A stretch of 64,000 nucleotides of DNA from an uncultured Clostridia bacterium (GTDB lineage: Bacteria; Bacillota; Clostridia; Christensenellales; UBA1242): NCBI GenBank assembly GCA_947584415.1, contig CANPWN010000001.1:77216-141215 (forward strand), given 5' to 3'. The notes below the pieces were generated by a model. That model was not told the DNA's origin. It made no database searches and saw nothing but the letters and a program-made list of their open reading frames with translations. The position numbers were made by a program, and so were the translations under genes. Positions 6,101 to 60,275 of the stretch are shown in pieces (the stretch's first letter is position 1; every line of letters begins with the position of its first letter).

Positions 6101-6872
6101 TAAGTGAGCATTTTCCAATTGTGCCATAGCAAACGCCCGCTACAGTGCCGGCATAGAAGAAGCGCCCTTCAACTTTTGAGTTTTCAAAAACAACATTTTC
6201 AACAACTCCGCCCTTTCCAATCTTTGAAAAGAATCCAGCAGTTGAATAGTTAAGGTTGCCTTGTTCAATGTTCATATTGATGATTTTGTGTCTTGCAATG
6301 CCGCCAGAGAAAGTGCCAGTAAATTCATCAATAACAATTTTGCCTGAAGACTGATTGTCATATCTAATTTCGCCATCTTCACCATAAATTCCAATAGGCA
6401 TAAATGGTTTTGTCATCACAATGTCGTTTGCAAGTTCGTAGTGATCAGAATAATGCCATCCAAACTTGCCAATTCTGTTAAGGTCATCTTCATTTCTCAA
6501 ATAATAAGGTGTTTCAGTTGAGCCATCACCAATTTTGCAGTCAACAATAAATTCCTTTGCTTTATATTTTTCATTTGTTGATTTAAAAGTAATTCTGATT
6601 GGCCCAGGAGCAATGGCTGTCATTTTCCATGCATTAAGGTCAATTTTAACATATTTATCCCATCCGTCATCAACTGGGGCAAAGTCAGCATATTCCGCTG
6701 GATTGTCACGCTTGATTGGGATATCAAGGGTTTCATTAACATTCATATAAAAAGAATCAGTGTCTGCAACCAAACTTGTGATTGTTTCATCATCTCTGAC
6801 GACATAATAAATGGAAACGCCACATACCACAAGCACTATTGCGACCATAATGTATATTAAAAGTCTTTTCAT
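3144..6872 (-). CDS. large N-terminally anchored surface protein with many GLUG-type repeats
   Basis: Start at ATG 6872 (MKRLLIYIMVAIVLVV, TM anchor) after AAGGAGG. There are more than 12 repeats of the GG(I/V/L/F)(A/V)G...G.I..C type (GLUG motif). C-terminal region looks like Ig-like beta repeats. No LPXTG motif. Confidence 0.7.
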   Translation of the reverse strand: MKRLLIYIMVAIVLVVCGVSIYYVVRDDETITSLVADTDSFYMNVNETLDIPIKRDNPAEYADFAPVDDGWDKYVKIDLNAWKMTAIAPGPIRITFKSTNEKYKAKEFIVDCKIGDGSTETPYYLRNEDDLNRIGKFGWHYSDHYELANDIVMTKPFMPIGIYGEDGEIRYDNQSSGKIVIDEFTGTFSGGIARHKIINMNIEQGNLNYSTAGFFSKIGKGGVVENVVFENSKVEGRFFYAGTVAGVCYGTIGKCSLNNCTVINNLDMSSDFEAYTGGVCGLLNRIDSRVAEINICSIDVNLASKSFVGGVAGRNDGGVIFNCLVKTSKLDFNPSKEFFCYGGIAAISKYEAIGDYENNIYEAIYDPFVSNCVVYIEGLNTMSGKTYEIFGEYGAMNGAYTRESRGTYDNLYYVYGSTSSKLKKYGDCYNDEAIIVKEITDSEATNPETYEGCNFDFENVWHIVEGERLQLGLDYADGVVEYQAYSTRTTSSNITKENVAQVFQMMRSNPSADRTYVITEDIVYDGKVYGTEWQPIGTEDSPFIGKIKSMDGKTLTFKNLNINSNMENRYGGIFGIVYGTNTEIEGIDISETSEFFEIKGSVVGAIAGYNSMAHISNCNLSSFNIKAKQIAGGVVGINDGGKIENCKVNAEEYLTEQPVYDEMGNDTGETDFLPTINGRGKTIFGASLTSTQISLADGATPDATLGGFALGGIAGINNGSLSDCVSGGVQIKLGADDLSNVYAGGIMGYSKGFAQDVTVDRFGIIATEFKGRSYAGGLVGWQDGGKIEYALVASISGNTIQFAVDNDKTTAGGFVGIMSQASAINYSVSDSMTINAAMAGGFAGVASGKISQSYISSTTTLNCAYVGGFAVSLFDGAVIENCMTAANLNGSTLSAGMTLYLFRGSLINFCYIDPKFKPNQNDFGKESNIYAETASQYRRSPMDYGTITNTAIVGSYKPLLSGIGNKALLSDDDIVINGVKAKLQTKFFILGVNVFPIEANEVSTSKAALEEAGFDFNHTWNKDTEGYFLPTEASKVVVSAFMNSAATHPAYIYANNIDSIKITVNGNAVDRNNITSINGGFKVDVALGGTIKLQLTAKEGYEITDVIAVSGTVAFEDGAYTYSDYISDSAILTFVVEEVYNLEITAPNTSAVKVEYGSISKNAAKGEGDVFIVQVPKGNNITITLTVNQGFAVTGESVSSGVIAEKNNNGTIQYILSDYLKAEGDEEKPFTLTFTVTAQAAA

Positions 6873-6974
6873 TTTATCCTCCTTAGGCAATCAAAACCCA
6901 TAAGGTTTATTACAAACAACCTAATTATACAATCAATCATTTCAAATGTCAATACCCAAAAATTTGATAAAATG

Positions 6975-16338: not shown

Positions 16339-16808
16339 TTTTTACCATGCTTTTCAATATATTCTTTTCCGTGTTCGCTCTTATCAATAAACAAGATGCC
16401 ATCAAGATGGTCCATTTCATGGCAGACACATCTTGCAAAATACTTTTCACCGGTGATTTCGTATTTGTAACCAAGCCTGTCCTGAGCCCGAACGGTGATT
16501 TTGTAAGGTCTTGTGACTTTGTCCGAAAAAGAGCCAACACTAAGGCAACCTTCATCATCTGTTTGGCTGCCTTCCTCGGCAATAATTTTTGGGTTGATAA
16601 GTTCAAAATAGCAGCCGTTGATATCCATCACAATTGCACGAATAAGCACTCCAACTTGTGGCGCTGCAAGACCCATACCATTATTGGCATACATTGTCTC
16701 ACGCATATCATCCAACAAACTGTTAAGTTCATCATCAAAATCAGTGACTTCTTTGGACTTTTTGCGCAGACGCTCATCAGGAAATTTTAAAACTTTTCTT
16801 TTTGCCAT
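16335..16808 (-). CDS. def: peptide deformylase
   Basis: GLAAPQVG, EGCLS and HEMDH motifs. Confidence 0.95.
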   Translation of the reverse strand: MAKRKVLKFPDERLRKKSKEVTDFDDELNSLLDDMRETMYANNGMGLAAPQVGVLIRAIVMDINGCYFELINPKIIAEEGSQTDDEGCLSVGSFSDKVTRPYKITVRAQDRLGYKYEITGEKYFARCVCHEMDHLDGILFIDKSEHGKEYIEKHGKK

Positions 16809-16816
16809 TTTTCCTC

Positions 16817-18988
16817 CTAAGACATATTTTCTGGGTTGACCTCGAAAAAGACGCTGCTTTTCAAGGCATCTTTTGTGCAGTCAAAGATTTCGTCCTCAAT
16901 TTGTTTGCTTGCGGACTTAATTCTGATGACAATCTGATAGCGAAAAGAACTTTTAATTCTTTTTATTGGCGACTTCATGGCGTCCATGTAAATGATGTCA
17001 TCAATATACTTTTCTCGCACCTGTAACAGCCTATTATAACACGATTTAAGTTCATCTTTAACAACATTTTCATCAGTATTTGAAAAAAGTATGCGAATTA
17101 TCTTTGAAAATGGTGGGAATTTTGCTGTTGCGCGGATATTTGCCTCTTTTTTAAAAAAGCCTTTGTAATCATAATTTGCAGCAAACTTGTAAACATAGTG
17201 GCGCGGCGAATAGGTTTGCAAATCAACTTTGCCCTCAAATTGACTTCTTCCCGCCCTGCCAGAAACTTGGGTGATAAGCGAAAAACACCTTTCTGTGCTG
17301 CGATAATCAGAGCGATACAAACTCTGGTCAGCGTCAACAATGCCAACAAGCGTAACATTTTCAAAATCATGACCTTTGGCAATCATTTGCGTGCCAACCA
17401 AAATGGCAGGAAGAGTTGAAGCAAATTGTTCCAAAATCTTTTGATGAGAGTTCTTTTTTGACACAGTGTCATTATCCATCCTCAAAATTTTGACATCTGG
17501 GAAGATTTTTTGAAGTTCACTGACAATTCGCTCTGTGCCAACGGCCCCCTGCTTAATTTTGTCTGAGCCACAATTTGGACATCTGTCAAGCACTTTGTAT
17601 TGCTTGCCGCAGTAGTGACATTTAAGGCGGTTGTCCTCGCGGTGATAAACCAGACTGACATCACAGTCTTTGCACTTTGCAAGATATCCGCACTCACGAC
17701 ACATCATAAAGGAACTATAACCTCTGCGGTTGATGAAAAGCATGGCTTGTTTTTTGTCATTTATAACTTTTGCGAGGTCAGATAAAAGTTGAGTTGAAAA
17801 AATCCCACCATTGCCTGCACGAATTTCATTGAGCATGTCAATAATTTGAATTTTTGGGAGAGGCCTGCCATTTGCTCGCACAGGCATTTCAAGAAGTTGA
17901 ATTTCGCCCGTCACCGCTTTTTGATAATCCTCAATGCTTGGAGTCGCGCTGCCAAGCACAAGCGGGCAATGATTAAACTTTGCCCTAAACAAAGCAACCT
18001 CTTTGGAGTCAAAACGCGGGTTAGACTCGGAAATATATGACTGCTCGTGTTCCTCATCAACAATGATTATGCCCACATTTTCAATAGGCGCAAAAATGGC
18101 ACTTCTCGCACCAACCACCACTTTGGCGTCACCCGAAAAAATTCTGCGCCACTCGTCAAAGCGCTCTCCGGCTGAAAGGCTGGAGTGAATAAGAGCAATT
18201 TGCTCTCCAAAGCGTGCCTTAAATGTTGACATCACTTGTGGCGTCAAGGAGATTTCCGGCACAAGCATAATTGCCGTCTTTCCTTGGCTGAGGGCTTTGG
18301 AGATAAGATGCATATAAACTTCAGTTTTTCCGCTGCCCGTCACCCCGTGCAAAAGATAGGTCTTTGGCTGACAAATTGTTTTGATGGCGTTATCTTGCTG
18401 AGGATTCAAGGTGATTTTTTTGTCAAAATGCTCACTAAGATATGGTTTTCGAAAAACTTGCTCCTTTTCTAAAAGAATAAAGCCTTTATCAAGCAGCGCT
18501 TTAACGGCACTTGCCCCAAACTCATTTTTAAGTTCAGAAAGTCTAATTCTTTTGTAAATTTCAAGTTTTTCAACAATAATTTGCTGTTTTATTGCTCTTT
18601 TTAGGCTGTTTTTATCAATATTTTCGCTCAAAACCGCATATTTTTCAAAAAGTTCTTTAACTTTCCCCTCTCGAATTTCACTCGGAACGAACAGCCTTAA
18701 AACTGAAGTCTGCCTTAAATGAAACTCGCTGCACATGTATTGCATCAGGATAAGCATCTCTTCTTTTATCACCGGTTGCTCGTCAATAATTGAGATGATT
18801 GGCTTAATTTTGTTTGGAGTAAGTTCGCTTTTTTCTTTAAGTCCAATGACAAAACCTTGCAAAGTCCTCTTGCCAAACGGGACATAAACACGCATACCCT
18901 TCTTCACATCCATGTCGCCCGCAATGGCATAATCAAAAACTTTGTCAAGCGCCTTCACATCTTGGTCTATTATCACTTCTGCAAACAT
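16817..18988 (-). CDS. priA: primosomal protein N' (replication restart helicase)
   Basis: HGVTGSGKT Walker A, DEEH box, and Cys-rich zinc insert (CRECG...CKDC...CHYCG...CPNCG). Start MFAEVIID is at 18988. Confidence 0.92.
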   Translation of the reverse strand: MFAEVIIDQDVKALDKVFDYAIAGDMDVKKGMRVYVPFGKRTLQGFVIGLKEKSELTPNKIKPIISIIDEQPVIKEEMLILMQYMCSEFHLRQTSVLRLFVPSEIREGKVKELFEKYAVLSENIDKNSLKRAIKQQIIVEKLEIYKRIRLSELKNEFGASAVKALLDKGFILLEKEQVFRKPYLSEHFDKKITLNPQQDNAIKTICQPKTYLLHGVTGSGKTEVYMHLISKALSQGKTAIMLVPEISLTPQVMSTFKARFGEQIALIHSSLSAGERFDEWRRIFSGDAKVVVGARSAIFAPIENVGIIIVDEEHEQSYISESNPRFDSKEVALFRAKFNHCPLVLGSATPSIEDYQKAVTGEIQLLEMPVRANGRPLPKIQIIDMLNEIRAGNGGIFSTQLLSDLAKVINDKKQAMLFINRRGYSSFMMCRECGYLAKCKDCDVSLVYHREDNRLKCHYCGKQYKVLDRCPNCGSDKIKQGAVGTERIVSELQKIFPDVKILRMDNDTVSKKNSHQKILEQFASTLPAILVGTQMIAKGHDFENVTLVGIVDADQSLYRSDYRSTERCFSLITQVSGRAGRSQFEGKVDLQTYSPRHYVYKFAANYDYKGFFKKEANIRATAKFPPFSKIIRILFSNTDENVVKDELKSCYNRLLQVREKYIDDIIYMDAMKSPIKRIKSSFRYQIVIRIKSASKQIEDEIFDCTKDALKSSVFFEVNPENMS

Positions 18989-19054
18989 CTTTACTCCAAA
19001 AAAAATACTATTGCTTTGCAGCAATAGTATATCATATTTGAAAAATACAATCAA

Positions 19055-19252
19055 TTAAAAATTTGATGGAACAATCTTGTTTTGATAAACTTCTTCACAA
19101 GCAAGGCTGATTGCCTTTTTGTCCTGGTCAGCAAGTTCACTGTGGCGCACGGTTTCAATTTCCTTTGCGCGTTTGATAATCAAATTGCAAAGCACATAAA
19201 CATTGCCATTTGTCTTTCTGATAAGTTCATCAATTGGTGGATAAAGCATCAT
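19055..19252 (-). CDS. rpoZ: DNA-directed RNA polymerase subunit omega
   Basis: 65 aa; MLYPPIDELIRK...IIKRAKEI is omega-like; located upstream of priA. Confidence 0.75.
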   Translation of the reverse strand: MMLYPPIDELIRKTNGNVYVLCNLIIKRAKEIETVRHSELADQDKKAISLACEEVYQNKIVPSNF

Positions 19253-19349
19253 AACAGTTTACCTCTCTTTTAATTTGCACACATATTTTAGCACAAAACA
19301 TTTTTTTTGTAAACTATTTTTGCTTAGAGAAAAACTTTCAACCTTTTAC

Positions 19350-21326
19350 TTATTCAAGTGCTACTGCAAAACCTTTGCCTTTTAAAAACGTTTCAACCGA
19401 GGTCGTTGTGATGTTGCCGCCTGCCCATGTGTTCCACCGTAGCGCTGGATAGCCATTGTTGATTGCGCCGCATATCCATTCGCTGTCGGTAAAGCCAGTG
19501 GCATACACTTTCTTTTCCGCACTTGTGTCATATAAATATACACCTGCATATTTTGTAAGGCTGCTTACTGACAAATAGCCAAAAAGAATTTGGTCATCAG
19601 TGTCACTCTGTGATTTTAACTTTCCAACCGCAAAGGAATCAGTTATCGACACATTACTTGCGTAAACTGCTGTCGGAAACCGCCTTCCAGCAAACGCTGA
19701 CGGATAATATCCCTCCATTCCTGTGGAGACAAAGCCGCAACCTTGTATTGTAATATTACTGTAGCCAACAGAAGAGCGCCCTCCACAGAAAAAGCCCGCT
19801 ACAATTCCGTCATAATCACCTGTTTGCATTGAAGAGCCTTCCCTATACACATTTTGTAACGTGCATTCGTTAAATGCACAAAATATCATCCCCGCAAAAT
19901 TCCCTGCCGTTGTATTCATATCTATAAAATTTACATTTTTTATTGTGGCATTTTCCATTATAAAAATGAAGCAACTTATTTTGCCATCATGAAGCGAAAG
20001 TTCATCATTTGACAATATGGTTTCTTTTGGGTTTAAATTAAAAATTGTATGTCCCTGCCCGTCAAAAGTGCCAGTGAAATGTTTGATAGTTGTAAATGTT
20101 TTGCCAGCACAGTCAATGTCATTATCAAGGAAGAATTTGGCAGTCGAATTAAATTTTCCACCCGCATTTGTATAGGCTTCCATCGCTTGCAGCCCAGTAA
20201 AATCTGTGATATGGTATGAGCCATCTTTTGCTTTATAAATGCCAGGATAAGTTTGAATAAAAATATCAAATGGGGATGATAAAATTTCACTGTTTACGCA
20301 ATTTAATATCATACATGGACGGAAACCAAAATTATCATTAAGCACATGGTCACTGTCATAAAGTGTGCCATCATCTATGACAAAAGTTCCTAAAAAAGAA
20401 AATAACCCAGCAGAACGCAACCAATAAAAACCTGTTTCATTACGATAATCAGAGCCTGATGTAAATAAACTAAATGCATTGTTTGACAAAGCAAAATCTG
20501 ATGGCGATGCCGTTCGAGACTCTTCTGCTGTAGAACCACGATGAGAGCGAAGATAATATATGCCTTCTGCGTCTGTGGCTGGACAAAAAGTTTCGCTCAT
20601 TTCATAATAAGATGGAAGCCAAACATAATCCTGCGTTTGCGTTCCTTTCCCATCTGAATCAGGATTTGTGTAATCACCGGTTATGTTATTCTTGATTTTA
20701 GCCAATTTGATAAAATCCAAAGTATTGAGATTGGATTTTTCATAAAACTCTTCATTTGCAAATGCACGAATCTCTGAATCTGCCCAACTATTACCATCTG
20801 GGTCCGTTGCGTTAAAATGAACATATGAAGTGAGTAAAACATCAGAAATGACTGTAACTTCTTTTGCTAGTGTAGGTTCTTTCCCGTCAATTATCCACCA
20901 TTTAATTGGCTCAACCTTAAACCATCTTATTAAACCACTTTCTCCAATAACCGTGCCATCTTGATAAGTATATTGAGCAGAATTAGTTATTTGCTCACCT
21001 CTAACATATTTAGTGCCATTATAAGTGTATTCTGTCCACTCATTATCATAAATTGTATATACTTTGCCAGTTGTTTGAGCAGTGCCAGATGTAACGGCAG
21101 AATTTAATGTTTGTTCCATTGAACTTCCAACATATGTCTGTGGCCATTCACCCAAATTTGTATAATAATATTCATGATTATTTAAATTTACTTTCACCCA
21201 CTTTATTGTTGTATCTCCTACCGCAGTGATTGTGGATGGAGTTGAAGAAGTTATAAGATTTGAAATGTTTGGAAAACAGAAGAGTGAAAAGATAAAAGCC
21301 AAGACTAATGAAAAAGTTGTTTTCAA
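19350..21326 (-). CDS. secreted protein: N-terminal (Y)WLRS-type domain (DUF6273-like) plus C-terminal GLUG-like region. The 5' end is probably disrupted or phase-switched by the G10 tract.
   Basis: Signal peptide KTTFSLVLAFIFSLFCF and FTGTFDGQGHTIFNL. The annotated TTG start has no SD. The frame stays open upstream to 21431, and an SD+ATG at 21412 is one G out of frame. Confidence 0.65.
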   Translation of the reverse strand: MKTTFSLVLAFIFSLFCFPNISNLITSSTPSTITAVGDTTIKWVKVNLNNHEYYYTNLGEWPQTYVGSSMEQTLNSAVTSGTAQTTGKVYTIYDNEWTEYTYNGTKYVRGEQITNSAQYTYQDGTVIGESGLIRWFKVEPIKWWIIDGKEPTLAKEVTVISDVLLTSYVHFNATDPDGNSWADSEIRAFANEEFYEKSNLNTLDFIKLAKIKNNITGDYTNPDSDGKGTQTQDYVWLPSYYEMSETFCPATDAEGIYYLRSHRGSTAEESRTASPSDFALSNNAFSLFTSGSDYRNETGFYWLRSAGLFSFLGTFVIDDGTLYDSDHVLNDNFGFRPCMILNCVNSEILSSPFDIFIQTYPGIYKAKDGSYHITDFTGLQAMEAYTNAGGKFNSTAKFFLDNDIDCAGKTFTTIKHFTGTFDGQGHTIFNLNPKETILSNDELSLHDGKISCFIFIMENATIKNVNFIDMNTTAGNFAGMIFCAFNECTLQNVYREGSSMQTGDYDGIVAGFFCGGRSSVGYSNITIQGCGFVSTGMEGYYPSAFAGRRFPTAVYASNVSITDSFAVGKLKSQSDTDDQILFGYLSVSSLTKYAGVYLYDTSAEKKVYATGFTDSEWICGAINNGYPALRWNTWAGGNITTTSVETFLKGKGFAVALE

Positions 21327-21348
21327 AAATCTTGGCTTATTTTGAAAA

Positions 21349-21357
21349 TGTGGATAA
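21349..21357. promoter_or_regulatory. perfect DnaA-box 9-mer (TTATCCACA on minus strand)
   Basis: tgtggataa read on the plus strand, 23 nt upstream of the TTG start of the secreted-protein ORF. Confidence 0.5.
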
Positions 21358-21380
21358 TTTTTAGTTAGGCAGTAAGGCTG

Positions 21381-21390
21381 CCCCCCCCCC
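21381..21390. repeat. C10/G10 homopolymer tract
   Basis: ggctg-cccccccccc-ggtggg, an uninterrupted 10-mer in an otherwise AT-rich region. Confidence 0.95.
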
Positions 21391-21438
21391 GGTGGGTAAC
21401 AAAATGTTGCATACTTCCCTCGCTTGAAGTTTTATCAC

Positions 21439-21447
21439 TGTGGATAA
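21439..21447. promoter_or_regulatory. perfect DnaA-box 9-mer (TTATCCACA on minus strand)
   Basis: tgtggataa within tgtggataactt, just downstream of a TTGTTA-16-TATAAT promoter-like element on the minus strand (about 21462-21489). Confidence 0.5.
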
Positions 21448-21550
21448 CTTACATTTTTATTATAAGCATTTTTTTGCAATTAACAAAATAAAATCATATA
21501 AAAATCACAAAAATCAGTGTAAAATTGACAAAAATTTGAATATTTAAACA

Positions 21551-21578
21551 AAAAAAACTTCAAGGGCGTGCCTTGAAG
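21551..21578 (-). terminator. rho-independent terminator after ppdK
   Basis: cttcaagg-gcgtg-ccttgaag 8-bp stem with a T-run on the minus strand. Confidence 0.8.
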
Positions 21579-21599
21579 TTTTGATTCTCTTCCAATAAA

Positions 21600-24227
21600 T
21601 TACTTTCTTGGATTCTTAATTGCAGCCTGTGCAGCAGCAAGCCTTGCTATTGGAACACGGAAAGGTGAGCAAGAAACATAGTTAAGCCCAACATTGTGGC
21701 AGAACTCAACACTTGATGGGTCACCACCATGTTCGCCGCAGATTCCAAGTTTGATGTCTGGGCGAGTGCCTCTTCCAAGGTCAGCAGCCATCTTAACAAG
21801 TTTGCCAACGCCAGTTGTGTCCAAACGAGCAAATGGGTCAGACTCAAAAATCTTTTTCTCATAGTATTCGTCAAGGAATTTGCCAGCGTCATCACGGCTA
21901 AAGCCAAATGTCATTTGTGTAAGGTCGTTTGTTCCAAAAGAGAAGAATTCCGCACTCTTTGCAACTTCGTCAGCAGTGAGCGCTGCACGAGGAATTTCAA
22001 TCATTGTGCCAATTTTGTAATGAAGGTCGGCTTTCTTCTTTGCAATAACTTCGTCTGCTTTTGCAGCAACAATATCGCGAACATATTTGAATTCGTGGCT
22101 GTCGCAAGTGAGAGGTATCATGATTTCAGGAACAATGTTGTAACCTTTTGCTTTCTTAACTTCAATTGCAGCCTCAATAACAGCCTGTGTTTGCATTTCA
22201 GCAATTTCAGGGTATGTCACAGCAAGTCTAAGTCCACGGTGACCCATCATTGGGTTGAACTCGTGAAGGTCAGCAACTGTTTGTTTGAGTGATGCAGCAG
22301 AAATTCCAAGGTCTTTTGCAAGAGTTTTGATTTCAGCATCAGTGTGTGGCAAGAATTCATGAAGAGGTGGGTCCAAGAAACGAATTGTAACAGGTTTGCC
22401 CTGCATTGCAGTGTAAAGACCTTTAAAGTCTTTCTTTTGCATTGGGAGAAGTTTTGCAAGGGCTTTCTTTCTGTCCTCAACATTTGTTGCAACAATCATT
22501 TCACGCATAGGCATAATTCTGTCAGCGTCAAAGAACATGTGTTCTGTTCTGCAAAGTCCAATTCCCTCTGCACCAAAGTCAAAGGCAACTTTTGCATCTC
22601 TTGGGTTGTCGGCGTTTGTGCGAACTTGAAGTTGACGATATTTATCCGCCCACTTCATGATTGTTGCAAACTCACCTGCAATTTTTGCTGGTTCTGTTGC
22701 AATTTCGCCGGCATAAATCTTTCCTGTTGAACCATCAAAGGAAAGAATATCTCCTTCTTTGAAGGTGTGTTTGCCAATTGCAAATGATTTTCCATCTGGA
22801 GCAAATTTGATTGCACTGCATCCGGCAACGCAAGCAGTTCCCATACCTCTTGCAACAACGGCAGCGTGAGAGGTCATACCTCCGCGAGCAGTCAAAATGC
22901 CTTCTGATGCCATCATGCCTTCAATATCTTCTGGAGAGGTTTCAAGGCGAACAAGAACAAGTTTTTCTCCCTGTTCTTTAAGTTCTTTTGCTCTCTCTGC
23001 TGTGAAAACAACTTTTCCGCAAGCAGCCCCTGGAGAAGCAGGAAGTGCTTCAGCAATTGGAGTTGCTTTTTTAAGTGCAGCAGCCTCAAATTGTGGGTGC
23101 AAAAGTGCATCAAGTTGTTTTGGGTCAATTGAAAGAAGGGCTTCTTTTTCAGTGAGCATCTTTTCTTTCACAAGGTCAACAGCAACTTTAAGAGCAGCAC
23201 GTGCTGTCCTCTTTCCGTTTCTTGTTTGAAGCATATAGAGTTTGCCTTTTTCAATAGTGAACTCCATATCCTGCATGTCGCGGTTGTGTTTTTCAAGTGC
23301 TTTTGTGATGCGAACAAACTCTTCATAAACCTTTGGGTTTTGTTTTTTGAGTGTTGAAATTGGAAGTGGTGTTCTTATTCCGGCAACAACATCTTCGCCC
23401 TGTGCGTTCATAAGATATTCACCATAAATTTCATTCTCGCCTGTAACAGGGTTTCTTGAGAAGGCAACACCTGTTCCAGAGTCCTCAGAAAGATTTCCGA
23501 AAACCATCATTTGAACATTGACTGCTGTTCCCCACTCATAAGGGATGTCATGTTCACGGCGATAAATGTTCGCTCTCTTGTTATCCCATGACCTAAAAAC
23601 GGCTTTAACTGCTTCTGTCAGTTGAACACGAGGGTCTTGTGGAAACTCTACGCCAAGCCCTTTCTTGTAAAGGTCTTTGAACATCTTAACGATATCTTTA
23701 AGGTCTTCTGCTGAAAGGTCTTTGTCAAACTTAACGCCTTTCTTTTCTTTCACTTGGTCAAGAATTCTCTCATATTTTGATTTGTCCTGTTGCATAACAA
23801 CATCTGAGAACATTTGGATAAATCTTCTGTATGAGTCATAAGCAAAACGAGGGTTGTTTGTCAGTTTTGCAAGTCCTTCAACAACCTTATCATTGAGGCC
23901 GAGGTTTAAAACTGTGTCCATCATGCCAGGCATTGAAACTCTTGCGCCTGAACGAACTGAAACAAGAAGTGGATTGTTTATGTCGCCAAACTTTTTGCCT
24001 GTCACTTTTTCAAGTTCAACAAGTTTTGTTTCAATCTGCTTTTCAATGTCAGCATTGATTTTTCTGCCATCTGCATAATACTGTGTGCAGGCTTCGGTGG
24101 TGATTGTAAAGCCTTGTGGCACAGGCATGCCAAGTTTTGTCATTTCTGCAAGGTTTGCTCCTTTCCCACCAAAAAGAGCCTTGTTGCTTCCGTCTGCTTC
24201 TTTAAAAGAATAAACAAATTTTTTCAT
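21600..24227 (-). CDS. ppdK: pyruvate, phosphate dikinase
   Basis: MKKFVYSFKEADGSNKALFGGKGANLAEM..., phosphohistidine region GGMTSHAAVVARGMG, and C-terminal PEP-utilizer domain. ATG 24227 follows AAGGAGAAG. The upstream part of the track ORF looks like non-coding read-through. Confidence 0.95.
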   Translation of the reverse strand: MKKFVYSFKEADGSNKALFGGKGANLAEMTKLGMPVPQGFTITTEACTQYYADGRKINADIEKQIETKLVELEKVTGKKFGDINNPLLVSVRSGARVSMPGMMDTVLNLGLNDKVVEGLAKLTNNPRFAYDSYRRFIQMFSDVVMQQDKSKYERILDQVKEKKGVKFDKDLSAEDLKDIVKMFKDLYKKGLGVEFPQDPRVQLTEAVKAVFRSWDNKRANIYRREHDIPYEWGTAVNVQMMVFGNLSEDSGTGVAFSRNPVTGENEIYGEYLMNAQGEDVVAGIRTPLPISTLKKQNPKVYEEFVRITKALEKHNRDMQDMEFTIEKGKLYMLQTRNGKRTARAALKVAVDLVKEKMLTEKEALLSIDPKQLDALLHPQFEAAALKKATPIAEALPASPGAACGKVVFTAERAKELKEQGEKLVLVRLETSPEDIEGMMASEGILTARGGMTSHAAVVARGMGTACVAGCSAIKFAPDGKSFAIGKHTFKEGDILSFDGSTGKIYAGEIATEPAKIAGEFATIMKWADKYRQLQVRTNADNPRDAKVAFDFGAEGIGLCRTEHMFFDADRIMPMREMIVATNVEDRKKALAKLLPMQKKDFKGLYTAMQGKPVTIRFLDPPLHEFLPHTDAEIKTLAKDLGISAASLKQTVADLHEFNPMMGHRGLRLAVTYPEIAEMQTQAVIEAAIEVKKAKGYNIVPEIMIPLTCDSHEFKYVRDIVAAKADEVIAKKKADLHYKIGTMIEIPRAALTADEVAKSAEFFSFGTNDLTQMTFGFSRDDAGKFLDEYYEKKIFESDPFARLDTTGVGKLVKMAADLGRGTRPDIKLGICGEHGGDPSSVEFCHNVGLNYVSCSPFRVPIARLAAAQAAIKNPRK

Positions 24228-30699: not shown

Positions 30700-32976
30700 C
30701 TATAAACAAGTGTTTTTTAAAGAGCTAATTTCCTTTATCAACTCATTTACGCTTAACGAATTAAGATTTTTCTGAAACATTGCTGTATCATAGAAACTGG
30801 TTTGGGATATATCTCCATTTGAAGTGTTGACTTTAAAAACAGAAATCACAATGGGTTGATTAAAAACATTTTGCTTACTAAAATATTCTCTATATGCCTC
30901 TTGCAGCATCTCCGTCTTCTCCGGGTTAATATCTTTTTCATCTTTAACTTCAATATATAAGCAAACCTTATTTTTAAACTTAATAATGAAATCAAAATAA
31001 CTATGTCTCAAATTGTTAAATTTGTCTAAATAAGCACCATTCACATTGCTAGTAGTAAAGTTTTTGCCCCAAACACTAATGCATTCTTCATTATAATCTA
31101 TGTCACTTATTTTATCAAAAACAAAAACTTCTGGGCTTCTATCATTTTCACCTATTGGCTGATAATTATTTTTGTCTCCCAATTTTGTTTCAAAAAGATA
31201 AGAGTGCATTCGAATGCTTTCATCATGAGAAACACTTGTGTAAAACTCAGTGTACATTTGCGGTGTATAAGGACTAGAAACAACCCTATATCTGGGTTTA
31301 TATAATTTGTTTTTATTTATGAAGTTTAATAAGTCTTTCTTACATTTTTGGATAAGCGTAATATAAAACATTTCTTTTGTATAAGGAAAATTTTCATATA
31401 ATTTTTTATCTTTAAAGTTAACTTTCCAAAAACTAAATAAAAGATTTTCACATTTTTCAAATATTTCTCTATTAGCTTCTCTTAATTTTAAATATAATTT
31501 AGTAAATTGAAATATGTTGCTAATCTCAGAATAATATTCCCCGCCTGCAATAGAAATATGAGTGTCTTTATAAATTAATTGTTTGTTTTTTAACGCAAAT
31601 ATTGTTTTACTTAACTGAAATATTTTATCTTTATTAGTATTTAAATATTTGTTTATATCTTCTTGCAATCCCTGTTCGTTAATATTTTGGGAGCAATCTT
31701 TAACATTTGTAATTTCTATAGACATAAACTCTTCTTGCAAAAATTTTTCTTTAACTCTGGCATTAAAGACTATAAAATTATTGTCCTGCGGAGCATTTGA
31801 ATATATATAATATTTATCTGTTGTTTCATTTTTTTCTAAATTTTTATAACAATTTCTTTTTATTCTTCCAAGAGTCTGTATGTTTAAGCCTTCAGAACAA
31901 ACATTTCTTAACTGTAATAATAAACATGCTCGAGGAATATCCCAACCCGTTGCGGGGCCAATTTTAAAAATAATGACATCAAAATCACTTTCATTTTTAG
32001 ATAATTCATTTAAGCTGAACATGTCTTTATATATTGTGTTGCTAAATTTTTCATTTTCTCCAAAATATCTAGCATAAGAAAGCCCCGCATCGTTTAACTT
32101 TTTTTCAATTAAATTTAATGTAGCTTGAAACTTTTGACTTTTATCTAAATCTGTTTTAGAATCATTGTCAACTTGGATAAGCATTGCTGGGCGAATATAA
32201 ATCCCCTCTTTTTCTAATTCTTTATATTCCTTCTTGATTCCTTTAAATTTGCTGATAGCATCCTTTAACATCTCTTCGTCATTCATAGAGCCTTCCAGCA
32301 ATGTTATTGCTTGAGTTTTTAATAAGTATTTCCCTTCATTTTTTATTGGATTGTTAAGGTCCTCTTCGGTTAAAATAACTTTGTGTATTGAAGCGTCACT
32401 ATAGTTTGGAGTGGCCGTCATTCTTATTACCATATCAGCATTATTTTGCATAAGAAATTCAAAGTTTTTATCTTCATTTGGCTCTCCGCCTATATGTGCT
32501 TCATCTCTAATATAAATCAATTTATAACCTTCATCTTTAGTTATATTTACAAAATCATCAATAACATGCCTCGTTGTTAATATTCTGTCCTTGCCAAAAC
32601 TGCTTTTACCAAAAATATAAACTTTGTTTGCTTCTGGGATAATCCTAACAGTGCCATCTGTTTTGGGCGCGCGTTTAGCATTTTCACTAGGACTTTTAAT
32701 ATGTTCAACATCAAACTTTGAAAAAGGTAAATCTTGTTTATATGTCAATATTTTCTGTTCAAAAGAAAATGGCAAATCAGAAGACGAAGGTGTGGCAATT
32801 ACAAACACAAATTTTTCTGTCGTATATCGAGACATTAACTCTGAAATAAAGGCTGTGGCCATCAATGTTTTTCCGCTACCGGTAGGTGCCTTAAAATCTA
32901 TTTTTATTGGAACTTGCGAATTATATAATGATAATAGCTCATCTACCTTTTCTTTTTGTAAATTGGTCAATTCCAT
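30700..32976 (-). CDS. res: Type III restriction enzyme Res subunit (SF2 helicase plus PD-(D/E)xK nuclease)
   Basis: APTGSGKT Walker A, IRDEAH box, and C-terminal D-x12-IEVK nuclease motif. Stop/start abuts mod. Confidence 0.8.
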   Translation of the reverse strand: MELTNLQKEKVDELLSLYNSQVPIKIDFKAPTGSGKTLMATAFISELMSRYTTEKFVFVIATPSSSDLPFSFEQKILTYKQDLPFSKFDVEHIKSPSENAKRAPKTDGTVRIIPEANKVYIFGKSSFGKDRILTTRHVIDDFVNITKDEGYKLIYIRDEAHIGGEPNEDKNFEFLMQNNADMVIRMTATPNYSDASIHKVILTEEDLNNPIKNEGKYLLKTQAITLLEGSMNDEEMLKDAISKFKGIKKEYKELEKEGIYIRPAMLIQVDNDSKTDLDKSQKFQATLNLIEKKLNDAGLSYARYFGENEKFSNTIYKDMFSLNELSKNESDFDVIIFKIGPATGWDIPRACLLLQLRNVCSEGLNIQTLGRIKRNCYKNLEKNETTDKYYIYSNAPQDNNFIVFNARVKEKFLQEEFMSIEITNVKDCSQNINEQGLQEDINKYLNTNKDKIFQLSKTIFALKNKQLIYKDTHISIAGGEYYSEISNIFQFTKLYLKLREANREIFEKCENLLFSFWKVNFKDKKLYENFPYTKEMFYITLIQKCKKDLLNFINKNKLYKPRYRVVSSPYTPQMYTEFYTSVSHDESIRMHSYLFETKLGDKNNYQPIGENDRSPEVFVFDKISDIDYNEECISVWGKNFTTSNVNGAYLDKFNNLRHSYFDFIIKFKNKVCLYIEVKDEKDINPEKTEMLQEAYREYFSKQNVFNQPIVISVFKVNTSNGDISQTSFYDTAMFQKNLNSLSVNELIKEISSLKNTCL

Positions 32977-32978
32977 AA

Positions 32979-34553
32979 TTAATCCTCACTTTTAGATTTA
33001 TAAGGAGTTAAAGATGAAAGGGTGTTGTAAATATTTATGTTATTCTGAATATAATTTGGGTCTAATTTTTTAAAATTCTCTTCTGCCTCATTTTTTATTC
33101 TTTCAGATTTTTCTATTTCTGTTATATTAAGTTCTTCTTTCACAATATCAAAAACTCTTAGTGAATTGTTTTCTAAATTCTTTTTTTCTTTTGAATATGA
33201 CCAATCTAGTTCTTCTCCTTTTGACCCCTTACCCTTTATAACTCTATACAATCTTTCCCATGTAACACCTTTTGCGATGTTGTTTTCATTGTTGGTAACC
33301 AAAATAAATTTTCTATTTCCACCATCTTCTTCGTTTAATTCCATCACAGCTTGGCCCGTTGTTCCAGACCCTGCAAAAAAATCCAAAATTTTAATATCTT
33401 TGTTTTTATTATAACTTAATAGTTTCTTTATAAAACATACAGGCTTTGCATAATCAAAAACGCTCATTCCAAAAATACTATTTAATTCTTTGGTCGCCAC
33501 TTGATTCATAAATTCATTTTTGCATGTATCTAATGAATTTAATAAAGAATTTTGGCTTCTTAATTCATTTTTGAATGATTTGAAAATAAAGCCTCTTTGG
33601 TTTTTTGATTTTTTTTCTTTGAATATAATAGTTCCATCGGAAATTAGTTGTGCTAATTTTTCTTCGGTGAATAGCCACCCTCGTCCCATTGGCGGATAAT
33701 CAAGTTGGTTGGTGTAGGGATTTTTAATTGGAAAAATGTTTTTTGACCCTTTCATAGTTGGGTCGGATGGCTTCCAATCTCCGCGCGGATCATTATCTGG
33801 ATTTTTATATTTATTTAAATTTTTTTCATCTCCGCAAAGATTAAACATGTTAGCATTTCTGGCATAGACTAAACAATATTCATGTTGTGTATTATAATCT
33901 TGTGCCATGGCTCTTTGGGTTACTGTTTTTCTAATATGACAACCTATAAAATTATCTTCGCCAAAAACTTCATCACACAAAACTTTCAAATATGCTTGTT
34001 CGTTGTCATCAATAGACACAAACATCACTCCATTATCTGTCAAAAGTTTTTTTGCTAATTTTAATCTTTCATTCATCATGTTAAGCCAACCATCTCTTGT
34101 GTATTTATCACGATAAATGAATTTTTTGCTTTCAACTTGTTCCTTGTAATCATTCCCTTCTTTTTTACTTTTTTCTGTTCCATATGGTGGATCAATATAA
34201 ATCAAATCAATAAGCCCTTTACCTTGCTTATCAGTATAAATAGCAATTAAATTTTTTAATGCATCATAATTTTCGCCAATAATCAAAACATGCTCTGTTG
34301 CGTTATGATTGCTTAAGTTTATTCCTAACGACTTATTCTCCTTGATATATGCAACACTATTATGATTAATTTCTGGTGCTTCATCAAAAACAAAACCTGT
34401 TTTTACCCTTTGGCTAATAAACCCCCAGACTGCATCTAAATCATTTACATCAACAGAATCAATAAGTTTTTTTGCTATCTCTTTTTGTTCTAAATTAAAA
34501 CTCTCTTTTGCTATCATATCTATTCTTTGTTTAAGAAATTCTTTTTTATCCAT
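32979..34553 (-). CDS. mod: Type III DNA methyltransferase Mod subunit (beta-class N6A/N4C)
   Basis: IYIDPPYGT (motif IV) precedes DFFAGSGTTG (motif I), which is the permuted order typical of Mod. Confidence 0.82.
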   Translation of the reverse strand: MDKKEFLKQRIDMIAKESFNLEQKEIAKKLIDSVDVNDLDAVWGFISQRVKTGFVFDEAPEINHNSVAYIKENKSLGINLSNHNATEHVLIIGENYDALKNLIAIYTDKQGKGLIDLIYIDPPYGTEKSKKEGNDYKEQVESKKFIYRDKYTRDGWLNMMNERLKLAKKLLTDNGVMFVSIDDNEQAYLKVLCDEVFGEDNFIGCHIRKTVTQRAMAQDYNTQHEYCLVYARNANMFNLCGDEKNLNKYKNPDNDPRGDWKPSDPTMKGSKNIFPIKNPYTNQLDYPPMGRGWLFTEEKLAQLISDGTIIFKEKKSKNQRGFIFKSFKNELRSQNSLLNSLDTCKNEFMNQVATKELNSIFGMSVFDYAKPVCFIKKLLSYNKNKDIKILDFFAGSGTTGQAVMELNEEDGGNRKFILVTNNENNIAKGVTWERLYRVIKGKGSKGEELDWSYSKEKKNLENNSLRVFDIVKEELNITEIEKSERIKNEAEENFKKLDPNYIQNNINIYNTLSSLTPYKSKSED

Positions 34554-57995: not shown

Positions 57996-58004
57996 TGTGG
58001 ATAA
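57996..58004. promoter_or_regulatory. perfect DnaA-box 9-mer (tgtggataa within tgtggataactt)
   Basis: Lies about 20 nt upstream of a TTAACA-17-ATATAT promoter-like element (58025-58053) preceding the 166-aa gene. Confidence 0.5.
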
Positions 58005-58073: not shown

Positions 58074-58574
58074 ATGCCTTGCATTAATGACAATAATAAC
58101 GGCTTTTACACAGGCCCTTATTATCCAAGACCATTTTTTATTGCACCAGAAAATCAAAGTGGCTCAAACAATGTTGTCAACCCTGCCCGCTCGGAAGAAT
58201 GGGGCTTTTTTGTTGGTCTGCCAACAACGGTCGCAAATGGCGGAACTGTTCCATTAACATTAAACGCAAGCACAGGAACTGCAGTCAGCCAACAAAACGC
58301 TGGGGTTGTCAGCATAACAACGGGCAGTTATCAAGTGTCTTACAACATCACCGCATCCTCCGCCACCGACCCAATGCAATTTGGAGTTGAACTTAACGGC
58401 ACAATCCTTCCATTCACAGTGGTGACTGCAACAAGCGGCGGCTCAGATGTCACGCTTTCAAACTCTGTCATCATCACCGCGCCATCAAACTCGACATTAA
58501 GACTTGTCAACTTGACGGCAGGAAATGCAGATGTGGCAATATCGTCAATGGCGGTGACAAAACTTTTAAATTAG
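58074..58574 (+). CDS. small protein with BclA-C-terminal-like (C1q/TNF-like jelly-roll) domain; possible spore-surface protein
   Basis: The pattern ...VPLTLNASTGTAVS...GSYQVSYNITA...VELNGT...TLSNSVIITAPSNSTLRLVNLT...SSMAVTKL parallels the BclA CTD strand pattern. No collagen GXX repeats. SD AAAGGAG present. Confidence 0.5.
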   Translation: MPCINDNNNGFYTGPYYPRPFFIAPENQSGSNNVVNPARSEEWGFFVGLPTTVANGGTVPLTLNASTGTAVSQQNAGVVSITTGSYQVSYNITASSATDPMQFGVELNGTILPFTVVTATSGGSDVTLSNSVIITAPSNSTLRLVNLTAGNADVAISSMAVTKLLN

Positions 58575-59655: not shown

Positions 59656-60165
59656 CTATATATCCAGTTTATCGAGAGTATCGCCAACGACGTCTTTGCT
59701 TATGCCAAGGATCTTTTGCATAGCGATTGTAGGCACTTCTGCTTGAATGGCGCCGCTCATATTTTGTGCAAGACTTTCCACTTTTTCAGGCATAGAGCCA
59801 ATTATGTATCGAGACATCTTTTTAATGTGAGGCAATGCGTTTCTAACCTGTTCGGCGGTTTGAATACCCATTTTGTCCAAGTCCGTTGCAAAAGTTTCTA
59901 CCATTTTGGCATAAGTCACAGAATGCCTTGCATTCTCTGGACCTAACATTGACAACGCTAAGTTTACTGAGGTATAACTTATAGCAGCGCTTAATGTGCC
60001 ATCCAGATTCAGAAGCATCTTCATTGGCAAAGTTCCAAATTCCGACGTGCTGGTTTGACCATTTTTTAGAATGTCTTCTTGCACTTCGGTAAACTTTGCA
60101 CTTTTGCTAAGCAGCTCCAAAACCTCCTCTCTTTCTTCTTCGCTTTTCCACCATTGTTCTGACAT
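59656..60165 (-). CDS. hypothetical protein (169 aa)
   Basis: ATG 60165 (MSEQWWKSEEE) follows AAAGGAGGAAAAACAC. No known motif. Confidence 0.55.
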   Translation of the reverse strand: MSEQWWKSEEEREEVLELLSKSAKFTEVQEDILKNGQTSTSEFGTLPMKMLLNLDGTLSAAISYTSVNLALSMLGPENARHSVTYAKMVETFATDLDKMGIQTAEQVRNALPHIKKMSRYIIGSMPEKVESLAQNMSGAIQAEVPTIAMQKILGISKDVVGDTLDKLDI

Positions 60166-60198
60166 GTGTTTTTCCTCCTTTTGCAAATTTACTTGATT

Positions 60199-60217
60199 TG
60201 TGGATAACTTATCCACA
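60199..60217. promoter_or_regulatory. 19-bp perfect palindrome made of two inverted DnaA-box 9-mers
   Basis: TGTGGATAA-C-TTATCCACA, located in the 5' UTR/operator position of the 169-aa gene. Confidence 0.6.
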
Positions 60218-60242
60218 TTTCTTTGCTTTTTGCCACAAAAAT

Positions 60243-60275
60243 AGTATACTCCAGCCAGCCAGCCAGCCTTGTCAA
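60243..60275 (-). promoter_or_regulatory. TTGACA / TATACT promoter hexamers separated by a 21-nt spacer
   Basis: Minus strand reads TTGACA-AGG(CTGG)4AG-TATACT. Confidence 0.5.
60251..60268. repeat. tetranucleotide repeat (CCAG)4.5 / (CTGG)4
   Basis: ccagccagccagccagcc read directly. Confidence 0.95.

What the first reader, a model, noticed from the sequence alone, without database searches (positions are those of the whole stretch)
21326..21434. G10 tract separates a good SD+ATG from the 658-aa secreted-protein ORF: candidate slipped-strand ON/OFF switch
On the minus strand the region reads GCGAGGGAAGT-ATG CAA CAT TTT GTT ACC CAC C-(G)10-CAGCCTTAC... As given, the ATG at 21412 opens a 15-codon ORF (MQHFVTHRGGGSLTA*). 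The 658-aa ORF frame is open upstream all the way to a TAA at 21434-21432. Within it, the only start after the tract is a TTG at 21326 with no Shine-Dalgarno.

With one extra G (G11, or G8/G14), the SD-preceded ATG reads without a stop into the ORF. This adds MQHFVTHRGGGQPYCLTKNYPHFQNKPRF in front of LKTTFSLVLAFIFSLFCF, which would be a long n-region plus the signal peptide. A 10-nt G/C homopolymer is highly atypical in this AT-rich genome. Its position in the 5' coding end of a surface or secreted protein is the classic contingency-locus layout. The alternative is a homopolymer-length assembly error.
Basis: partly seen in the sequence, partly recalled or inferred. Interest (0 to 1): 0.75.

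Follow-up and report, generated by a model that had tools for sequence, protein, structure and literature searches.

The report
Poly-G on/off switch in surface-protein gene
A run of ten G's just after the start codon puts a secreted or surface protein gene of an uncultured spore-forming Clostridia-like bacterium out of frame, and four relatives carry the same leader in frame, so this is most likely an ordinary slipped-strand on/off switch in a bacterial group where such switches are little documented.

Summary
A pure G10 tract lies on the minus strand at 21390-21381. It is the only G or C run of 6 or more in the 64-kb window (38.6% GC). It sits 22 nt after an ATG (21412) that has a normal Shine-Dalgarno sequence and its own promoter-like site.

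With G10, translation stops after 15 codons. With G8, G11 or G14 the ATG reads into a 686-688-aa protein with an N-terminal hydrophobic signal or anchor, a DUF6273 domain and a GLUG/M26-N-like C-terminal domain.

The decisive new evidence is four database proteins (P0001, P0002, P0021, P0022). They start with almost the same leader, M(Q/K)HFVTHRGGGQPYCLTK(N/S)YPHF..., in frame. Their leaders are 65-83% identical to the window's, while the mature parts are only 34-48% identical. They are probably paralogues from the same genome.

The downstream TTG has no Shine-Dalgarno sequence. Codon usage makes CGG-GGG-GGG-GGG about 1e-5 likely by chance.

The best reading is a translational slipped-strand contingency locus, caught OFF or miscounted by one G. 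Tract-length heterogeneity itself could not be tested.

An unexpected extra: perfect DnaA-box 9-mers flank the tract and recur at distant homologues.

This is a new member of a known kind, of moderate interest.

The parts
21554..21582 (-). Intrinsic-terminator-like hairpin plus T-run ending the upstream ppdK gene (21600-24227). It isolates the locus as its own transcription unit.
   Evidence: 12-bp stem, T-tail; ppdK ORF
21459..21486 (-). Promoter-like site TTGTTA-16 nt-TATAAT (10 of 12 matches), about 47 nt upstream of the ATG.
   Evidence: a consensus match only, not shown to be functional
21439..21447 (-). Perfect DnaA-box 9-mer TTATCCACA, between the -10 hexamer and the Shine-Dalgarno sequence.
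   Evidence: 5 perfect boxes in the window against 0.63 expected
21414..21421 (-). Shine-Dalgarno sequence GAGGGAAG, 5 nt (GAGG core) before the ATG.
   Evidence: duplex energy with the anti-SD is -7.9 kcal/mol, within the range of the window's genes
21365..21412 (-). 15-codon ORF MQHFVTHRGGGSLTA* as assembled. It is the 5' end of the real gene in the OFF frame.
21391..21399 (-). Degenerate DnaA-box-like 9-mer TTACCCACC (2 mismatches) abutting the tract. It encodes part of FVTH.
   Evidence: significance uncertain
21381..21390 (-). G10 homopolymer (C10 on the + strand): the proposed slipped-strand switch. G8, G11 and G14 are ON; all other lengths are OFF.
21327..21380 (-). Post-tract leader in the main ORF frame, QPYCLTKNYPHFQNKPRF. 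It is conserved in P0001, P0002, P0021 and P0022.
21349..21357 (-). Second perfect DnaA-box 9-mer TTATCCACA, read as (N)YPH(F) within the leader.
19350..21326 (-). Main ORF (658 aa from the TTG at 21326; 687 aa if the tract is G11). It has an N-terminal hydrophobic signal or anchor (LKTTFSLVLAFIFSLFCF), a DUF6273 domain at aa 177-342, and a C-terminal domain related to GLUG / Peptidase_M26_N regions.

Best explanation
The locus is a translational contingency (phase-variation) switch. The gene is transcribed from its own promoter and translated from the SD-preceded ATG at 21412.

Eight codons later comes a run of G's that is prone to slipped-strand mispairing during replication. With 11 G's (or 8, or 14) the ribosome reads through a 30-residue basic leader into the hydrophobic signal or anchor and the DUF6273 / GLUG-like protein, which is then exported. 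With 10 G's, as assembled, translation stops after 15 codons and the protein is not made.

Gain or loss of one G flips the state reversibly, at a rate far above the point-mutation rate. The same leader cassette, tract included, heads at least four other divergent family members. These are probably paralogues in the same genome, so a cell population would display changing combinations of these surface proteins.

What is shown:
- the anatomy of the locus;
- the frame arithmetic;
- the strength of the Shine-Dalgarno sequence;
- the rarity of the tract;
- the in-frame homologues.

What is inferred:
- that the tract actually changes length;
- that the protein is surface-exposed;
- that the homologues are paralogues carrying pure G tracts.
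For: - **Anatomy:** terminator, then promoter-like site, then SD, then ATG, then G10.
- **Frame test:** only G8, G11 and G14 give a long ORF.
- **In-frame relatives:** P0002 and P0021 start MQHFVTHRGGGQPY..., P0022 starts MKHFVTHRGGGQPY..., and P0001 starts MKKLFVTKYHRGGGQPY.... All have three Gly, as G11 would give. They were found with no word index in 1.84 billion representative proteins, as the only 4 hits.
- **Leader conservation:** the leader and signal region are 65-83% identical, against 34-48% for the whole proteins.
- **Start codon:** the SD energy is -7.9 kcal/mol for the ATG and -0.5 for the TTG. 22 of 26 window genes have -7 or stronger.
- **Tract rarity:** the tract is unique in 64 kb and about 1e-5 likely from codon usage.
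- **Assembly quality:** A/T runs of 8 inside seven long open frames do not break the frame, so there is no sign of general homopolymer error.
- **Intact body:** the 677 codons after the tract carry no stop.
- **Product type:** it belongs to classes usually found on the cell surface. DUF6273 appears in papers on diversity-generating-retroelement targets and phage receptor-binding proteins (titles only). The C-terminal domain matches GLUG / M26-N proteins.
- **Independent parallel:** a Treponema DUF6273 lipoprotein gene has a G10 tract in its promoter spacer.
- **Same-genome inference:** an NCBI-only control protein (P0026) is on record in the contig index. P0001, P0002, P0003, P0021, P0022 and the window's own P0024 are not. 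P0003 shares the window protein's contig length, 142,531 bp. None was found in the species-representative genome scan.
Against: - No direct evidence that the tract varies. No reads were available.
- No DNA could be retrieved for any leader-bearing homologue, so their RGGG may not be written as a pure G run.
- The four metagenome contigs of the same strain stop short of the tract.
- Exact look-ups of the hypothetical G11 and G8 products found nothing.
- All four homologues are in frame and only the window copy is not. A one-base miscount in the assembly would give the same picture.
- Surface location is predicted only. There is no recognised lipobox, sortase motif or wall-binding domain, and the structural search gave no significant match.
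Confidence: 0.7

Rival explanations
1. Assembly or sequencing miscount. The real tract is G11, the gene is simply in frame in the sampled population, and the apparent OFF state is an artefact.
For: All four leader-bearing homologues are in frame with three Gly, as G11 would give. Long G/C homopolymers are error-prone for sequencers and assemblers (general knowledge). Related metagenome contigs have only about 2x coverage.
Against: A/T runs of 8 in seven long open frames are frame-correct. Even if the true length is G11, an 11-G coding tract is intrinsically hypermutable in every bacterium where this has been tested. That would change the observed state, not the nature of the locus.
Confidence: 0.13
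2. A recent frameshift pseudogene. One member of a redundant paralogous family was lost by a one-base deletion, with no adaptive switching.
For: The gene is disrupted as assembled. Several similar family members exist that could compensate.
Against: There is no second lesion in 677 downstream codons. The 11 residues before the frameshift are identical to P0002 and P0021. The promoter-like site and SD are intact. A deletion inside a G11 run reverts at high rate, which in practice is phase variation.
Confidence: 0.07
3. Programmed recoding. With G10 fixed in the DNA, RNA-polymerase slippage on the G run, or a -1 ribosomal shift on G GGG GGG, makes some full-length protein. The tract would then set a low constitutive expression level instead of an ON/OFF state.
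For: A -1 shift inside the run yields exactly HRGGGQ (frame arithmetic). Homopolymer runs of 9 or more are known to cause transcriptional slippage (general knowledge, mostly for A/T runs).
Against: The homologues are in frame at the DNA level as annotated, so recoding is not required in the family. The leader RNA has no stimulatory structure: fold z-score -0.82. There is no Rfam match.
Confidence: 0.06
4. The true start is the TTG at 21326 or 21302. The ATG plus G tract is a short upstream ORF or 5'-UTR element, and the tract is irrelevant to the reading frame of the protein.
For: The database protein for this gene (P0024; source given as NCBI) starts at the TTG at 21302. MKTTFSLVLAF... could by itself pass as a minimal signal peptide.
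Against: Neither TTG has an SD, in a genome where nearly all genes have a strong one. The start at 21302 truncates the hydrophobic segment. Four homologues have the leader fused in frame. The distant subfamily also starts at an SD-preceded ATG about 15 codons before the hydrophobic segment.
Confidence: 0.04

Closest known systems
Gardnerella piotii nanH3 poly-C tract (Kurukulasuriya et al., bioRxiv 10.1101/2020.09.16.300947)
   Same: Both have a G/C homopolymer of 8-14 about 100 nt or less from the start codon of an exported protein gene in a Gram-positive bacterium. Only every third length gives the full-length protein; the other lengths give a peptide of about 40 aa or fewer.
   Different: In nanH3 the tract follows the signal peptide and length variation was shown by cloning. 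Here the tract precedes the hydrophobic segment and variation is untested. The protein is a DUF6273 / GLUG-like protein, not a sialidase, and the tract-bearing leader is shared by several divergent family members.
Neisseria opa genes (CTCTT repeats in the signal-peptide coding region of a paralogous family); my own knowledge
   Same: The repeat lies in the leader-coding part of the gene. The 5' cassette is conserved across a multigene family of surface proteins with divergent mature parts. Each copy can switch independently by frame.
   Different: The repeat there is a pentanucleotide, not a homopolymer, and the host is a proteobacterial pathogen. Here the multigene, same-genome status is inferred, not shown.
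Campylobacter jejuni / Helicobacter / Neisseria lgt poly-G contingency genes; my own knowledge, general background in PMC3025981 and PMC5084427 (titles and abstracts)
   Same: Intragenic poly-G tracts of 8-13 in AT-rich genomes, strongly over-represented relative to composition, giving translational ON/OFF switching.
   Different: Those are mostly glycosyltransferase, capsule, flagellar-modification or restriction-modification genes in Proteobacteria and Campylobacterota. This is a spore-forming Clostridia-like bacterium with a single such tract in 64 kb.
Listeria monocytogenes inlA 5' poly(A) tract (Orsi et al. 2010, PMC2831843)
   Same: A homopolymer at the 5' end of a surface-protein gene in a member of the Bacillota, giving reversible frameshift inactivation.
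   Different: That tract is poly(A) of about 7, with a lower expected switching rate. It is not a family-wide cassette.
Treponema pallidum tpr poly-G promoter tracts (my own knowledge), and the Treponema sp. UBA4377 DUF6273 lipoprotein locus L029 found here
   Same: A poly-G tract of about 10 controls a surface-protein gene. L029 shows this in the same protein superfamily.
   Different: There the tract lies between the -35 and -10 hexamers and acts on transcription through spacer length. In the window it lies inside the coding region and acts on the reading frame.

Membership tests
Simple-sequence-repeat contingency locus (translational, intragenic homopolymer) | Long uninterrupted homopolymer, at or above the roughly 7-8 G/C generally taken as hypermutable | tested here: met
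   Pure G10 at 21390-21381
Simple-sequence-repeat contingency locus (translational, intragenic homopolymer) | The tract lies between the real start codon and the body of the ORF, so length changes of one unit toggle the frame | tested here: met
   G8, G11 and G14 give 686-688 aa; other lengths give 14-18 codons. The ATG has an SD and the TTG does not. Homologues are in frame.
Simple-sequence-repeat contingency locus (translational, intragenic homopolymer) | The tract is over-represented relative to genome composition and codon usage, implying it is maintained by selection | tested here: met
   The only G/C run of 6 or more in 64 kb, with expectation about 0.01. P is about 1.2e-5 from codon usage, and 0 of 70 Gly-Gly pairs are written GGGGGG.
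Simple-sequence-repeat contingency locus (translational, intragenic homopolymer) | Tract length is polymorphic within populations or between strains | not testable with these tools
   No reads. Same-strain ENA contigs stop at 20049. No DNA could be retrieved for the homologues. The only indirect hint is that the window is 10 nt long while the homologues are 11-nt equivalents.
Simple-sequence-repeat contingency locus (translational, intragenic homopolymer) | The product is exposed to the host, phage or environment (surface or secreted) | tested here: inconclusive
   An N-terminal hydrophobic segment is conserved across the family. There is a DUF6273 domain and a GLUG/M26-N-like C-terminal domain. 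No anchoring motif was recognised and there was no significant structural match.
Simple-sequence-repeat contingency locus (translational, intragenic homopolymer) | Reversible ON/OFF expression observed | not testable with these tools
   Needs culture or reporter fusions
DnaA-box cluster / DnaA-regulated promoter | Several consensus 9-mers TTATCCACA clustered within about 100-250 bp | tested here: met
   Window: two perfect boxes 90 nt apart plus one with 2 mismatches. L038 and L039: four perfect sense-strand boxes each, the only ones in 8.3-8.5 kb.
DnaA-box cluster / DnaA-regulated promoter | DnaA binds and changes transcription or titrates DnaA | not testable with these tools
   Needs ChIP, EMSA or reporter assays

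The most novel reading that the evidence does not exclude
The five or more family members share a composite 5' control cassette. An array of DnaA boxes straddles the promoter, the start codon and the leader. This array is conserved as DNA, in different reading frames, between subfamilies only 31-35% identical in protein sequence. Onto it the window's subfamily has added a hypermutable G tract.

Expression of these surface proteins would then be gated twice. DnaA would gate it deterministically, according to replication or growth status, or entry into or exit from sporulation. The tract would gate it stochastically, copy by copy. This would be a combinatorial surface-variation system in spore-forming gut Clostridia, where only invertons and epigenetic switches are well known.
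Probability: 0.2. Interest if true: 0.7.

Novelty: new member of a known kind. Interest (0 to 1): 0.5.

Why it matters
Slipped-strand contingency loci are textbook in Neisseria, Haemophilus, Campylobacter, Helicobacter and mycoplasmas. To my knowledge they are rarely described in uncultured, spore-forming Clostridia-like bacteria, where known phase variation in related gut organisms is mostly by DNA inversion or methylation.

If confirmed, this locus and its leader-sharing relatives would show that such organisms also vary a family of DUF6273 surface proteins by homopolymer slippage. DUF6273 is a domain also named in work on diversity-generating retroelements in gut phages and bacteria.

There are two practical consequences:
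- **Annotation:** the database protein for this gene (P0024) starts inside the signal segment, so the gene is mis-called.
- **Metagenomics:** tract-length mixtures at this site would be a ready marker of within-host population heterogeneity.

The DnaA-box array at these genes is an independent lead on how they are regulated.

Tried and rejected
**Searches for the homologues' DNA or for other strains' tract lengths**
- Exact look-ups of contigs for P0001, P0002, P0003, P0021, P0022, the window's 650-aa product and ppdK all returned "not on record".
- The rpoZ look-up found four 100%-identical ENA contigs, but they end at window position 20049, 1.3 kb short of the tract.
- A degenerate back-translated leader pattern found nothing in JGI metagenome contigs.
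- The genome-contig scan found no relative closer than 31% identity.
- Exact look-up of the hypothetical G11 and G8 products, and of two OFF-state products, found nothing.

**Searches that gave no usable result**
- A word-indexed search with the three-leader alignment returned nothing, not even P0001 and P0002. That search is uninformative, not negative.
- Rfam: no family matches the region.
- RNA folding of the 5' UTR plus leader gave z = -0.82, so no evidence for a structured element.
- Structure: the AlphaFold2 model has mean pLDDT 77.7. Foldseek against the PDB gave no match below E = 0.08, only weak beta-solenoid adhesin and tailspike resemblances. No function is assigned from the fold.
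- NCBIfam: no family for the protein or its relatives.
- No paralogue of the gene or its leader exists elsewhere in the window.

**Ideas considered and rejected**
- The tract as an Illumina poly-G read-end artefact. It is embedded in conserved flanks, and the homologues have GGG at the same place.
- The leader as a known extended signal-peptide motif. Pfam and NCBIfam give no hit there.
Full report
**1. The observation**

On the minus strand the region reads GCGAGGGAAGT ATG CAA CAT TTT GTT ACC CAC C (G)10 CAG CCT TAC TGC C TAA. The G10 tract occupies 21390-21381. The ATG at 21412 opens MQHFVTHRGGGSLTA*.

The frame of the 658-aa ORF (19350-21326) is open upstream to the TAA at 21434-21432. It has no start codon before the TTG at 21326.

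I replaced the tract with 6 to 15 G's. Lengths 8, 11 and 14 give a continuous ORF of 686, 687 and 688 aa. Every other length gives 14-18 codons.

The tract is not a chance feature.
- The window is 38.6% GC and has no other G or C run of 6 or more. The i.i.d. expectation for a run of 10 or more is about 0.01.
- Dinucleotide-preserving shuffles give a mean of 0.38 G8 matches.
- It is not a side effect of coding for Arg-Gly-Gly-Gly. In 29 ORFs of the window, GGG is 10.4% of Gly codons and CGG is 1.1% of Arg codons. CGG GGG GGG GGG would therefore arise with probability about 1.2e-5. None of the 70 Gly-Gly dipeptides is written GGGGGG.

**2. Anatomy of the locus**

The upstream gene is pyruvate phosphate dikinase, read from its sequence. 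It ends with a terminator-like hairpin at 21582-21554.

A promoter-like site, TTGTTA-16-TATAAT, lies at 21486-21459. Then come GAGGGAAG (21421-21414), the ATG, and eight codons later the tract.

The duplex energy between the upstream region and the anti-Shine-Dalgarno sequence is -7.9 kcal/mol for the ATG. The median for 26 ATG-started genes of the window is -9.15, and 22 of the 26 are at -7 or stronger. The TTG at 21326 scores -0.5. This genome relies on strong Shine-Dalgarno sequences, and the TTG has none.

The database protein for this gene (P0024; 650 aa, source given as NCBI) starts at a further TTG at 21302. That start lies inside the hydrophobic segment. This is the kind of mis-call expected when a caller meets a frameshifted 5' end.

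**3. The protein**

Pfam finds DUF6273 at residues 177-342. The C-terminal 300 residues match proteins carrying Peptidase_M26_N and GLUG domains.

The N-terminus has a hydrophobic stretch of about 16 residues. This stretch is conserved in the family, as ...AFVLSLFCFPNIS....

An AlphaFold2 model (mean pLDDT 77.7) is confident for residues 40-440. Foldseek against the PDB found nothing better than E = 0.08, only weak beta-solenoid adhesin and tailspike resemblances. An exported, probably surface-associated binding protein is therefore a prediction, not a result.

The organism is a spore-former. YpeB and SipL domains are present in the window. The nearest DNA-level relative of the gene family in reference genomes is an uncultured Clostridia MAG with the same GC content.

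**4. The decisive comparison**

The closest full-length homologues, P0002 (708 aa) and P0001 (922 aa), begin MQHFVTHRGGGQPYCLTKSYPHFQNKPSLLKTIFS... and MKKLFVTKYHRGGGQPYCLTKNYPHFQKQPGLLKIFFS....

I then ran an exhaustive HMMER search of 1.84 billion representative proteins with the 55 residues that follow the tract. It found exactly four proteins. Two were P0001 and P0002. The other two were P0021 (MQHFVTHRGGGQPYSLTKSYPHFQNKPRR...) and P0022 (MKHFVTHRGGGQPYCLTKNYPHFSKQPGL...). All four have exactly three Gly, which is what G11 gives.

Over the leader and signal region these proteins are 65-83% identical to the window. Over the whole protein they are only 34-48% identical. P0021 and P0022 have different N-terminal domains.

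A conserved 5' cassette, with the RGGG position included, therefore heads a set of divergent proteins.

**5. Are these paralogues in one genome?**

The evidence is indirect.
- The window's own product (P0024) and P0003 sit on contigs of the same length, 142,531 bp.
- None of P0001, P0002, P0003, P0021, P0022 or P0024 is on record in the contig index. An NCBI-only control protein from another MAG, P0026, is on record.
- None appeared in the species-representative genome scan, although the scan patterns match them.

The simplest reading is that they all come from the one genome that is withheld here. I put this at about 65%. If it is right, the assembly shows four copies ON and one OFF, which is what a contingency gene family looks like in a consensus assembly.

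**6. Mechanism**

The best explanation is slipped-strand mispairing in the G run, toggling translation of the full-length exported protein (confidence 0.7). Section 8 sets out the known systems it resembles. The rivals are these.
- **One-base assembly miscount (0.13).** All homologues are in frame, which fits. However, seven A/T runs of 8 within long open frames are frame-correct. A real G11 coding tract would still be hypermutable.
- **Recent pseudogene (0.07).** There is no other lesion in 677 codons, and the upstream 11 residues are identical to P0002 and P0021.
- **Recoding by transcriptional or ribosomal slippage on a fixed G10 (0.06).** No structured element was found and there is no Rfam match.
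- **TTG start with the tract in a uORF or 5' UTR (0.04).** The TTG has no SD, and the homologues are fused in frame.

**7. An unexpected extra: DnaA boxes**

The perfect DnaA-box 9-mer TTATCCACA occurs five times in the window, against 0.63 expected. Two copies flank the tract on the sense strand.
- One lies between the -10 hexamer and the SD (21447-21439).
- One lies in the leader (21357-21349), where it is read as (N)YPH(F).

A version with two mismatches, TTACCCACC, abuts the tract.

A distant subfamily, 31-35% identical in protein sequence, was fetched as L038 and L039. There the DUF6273 gene lies after gmk and before spoIIE. In each locus it has four perfect sense-strand boxes, and these are the only boxes in 8.3-8.5 kb.
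- Two boxes lie upstream of a promoter-like TTGACT-18-TATACT.
- One lies between the promoter and the SD.
- One lies in codons 8-10, read as L-S-T.

The box downstream of the start codon is in a different reading frame in the two subfamilies. What is conserved between them is therefore the DNA motif, not the peptide.

Some annotated N-terminal extensions in that subfamily (...NFYPQRGENV......TYPQ...LTYPQF...) appear to be translated 5' UTR containing these boxes.

The boxes are not universal. The rabbit-gut homologue L001 has neither boxes nor tract, and L038 and L039 have no G/C run of 6 or more. The tract therefore looks like an addition specific to the window's subfamily, placed on an older box-bearing control region. 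Whether DnaA acts there is untested.

**8. Comparison with known systems, and verdict**

The locus works like these known systems.
- **Gardnerella nanH3 poly-C switch.** The tract is 8-14 C's, the gene is ON at 9 or 12, and the tract lies about 100 nt from the start.
- **Campylobacter and Neisseria poly-G genes.**
- **Listeria inlA 5' poly(A) tract**.
- **Neisseria opa genes.** Having the repeat inside a conserved leader of a divergent family resembles these. This comparison rests on my own knowledge.

It meets the sequence-level criteria of a contingency locus. Length polymorphism and reversible expression could not be tested.

This is a new member of a known kind in an under-studied group, with a side lead in the DnaA-box array. 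Interest is 0.5.

Noticed in passing
window 21439-21447(-), 21349-21357(-), 21391-21399(-); L038 3123, 3177, 3291, 3334(+); L039 2888, 2942, 3057, 3100(+): Perfect DnaA-box 9-mers (TTATCCACA) cluster in the 5' control and leader region of DUF6273 genes in two subfamilies only 31-35% identical in protein sequence. The box after the start codon is read in different frames (NYPHF against KLSTF), so the DNA motif is what is conserved. The function is unknown; it could be DnaA-dependent regulation or DnaA titration.
   Followed up: partly
window 57996-58004(-), 60199-60207(-), 60209-60217(+): Three more perfect DnaA boxes. One lies about 70 nt upstream of a small ORF (58074-58574) with a weak, sub-threshold BclA_C match. 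The other two form a tail-to-tail palindrome, TGTGGATAAcTTATCCACA, between the divergent ORFs 59656-60216(-) and 60223-61629(+). No dnaA gene was recognised there: the 468-aa ORF has no Pfam hit.
   Followed up: partly
L029 741-770 (Treponema sp. UBA4377, DGRX01000010.1): A G10 tract lies between TTGACA and TAATAT, giving a 19-nt spacer, upstream of a DUF6273 lipoprotein gene (MKKFGKIAALVAALGLALSFMGCSNN, ATG at 803). This is a promoter-spacer type poly-G switch candidate in the same protein superfamily in another phylum. G8 or G9 would give the optimal 17-18 nt spacer.
   Followed up: partly
window 21302 (TTG): The database protein for this gene (P0024, 650 aa; source given as NCBI) starts at the TTG at 21302, inside the hydrophobic signal segment. 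The gene is probably mis-annotated because of the frameshift. P0004 (587 aa) likewise lacks any signal segment as annotated.
   Followed up: partly
L038 3241-3258 against L039 3003-3020 (approximate): The promoter spacer of the L038 homologue contains a short GCGA tetranucleotide repeat (aagaGCGAGCGAGCGAGa). The close relative L039 has gaGAACGAACGAAa at the same place. This may be repeat-driven variation of the spacer.
   Followed up: no
P0029, P0032, P0033 (L039 3001-, L038 3001-): The annotated N-terminal extensions of these proteins (...NFYPQRGENV|KKVKSK..., ...TYPQRNAKK...LTYPQFNKTK...) run through the upstream terminator, promoter-like site, DnaA boxes and SD. The real start is most likely the SD-preceded ATG or GTG giving MKKVKSKLSTF.
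   Followed up: partly
L034-L037 (ENA ERZ27249433, ERZ27249236, ERZ27060014, ERZ27249426): Four short, roughly 2x-coverage metagenome contigs are 100% identical to window 16787-20049. The same strain is therefore present in several public samples whose reads could be used to count tract lengths.
   Followed up: partly
window 30700-34553(-): Adjacent ORFs with a ResIII helicase-type domain (30700-32976) and an N6_N4 DNA methylase domain (32979-34553), probably a Type III-like restriction-modification pair. No G/C run of 6 or more lies within them; other repeat types were not examined.
   Followed up: no
window 3144-6890(-), 60223-61629(+), 62150-63730(-): Three large ORFs (1248, 468 and 526 aa) have no Pfam family. 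The 1248-aa one is rich in xxGG(I/V/F)A repeats, which suggests a beta-helical surface protein.
   Followed up: no
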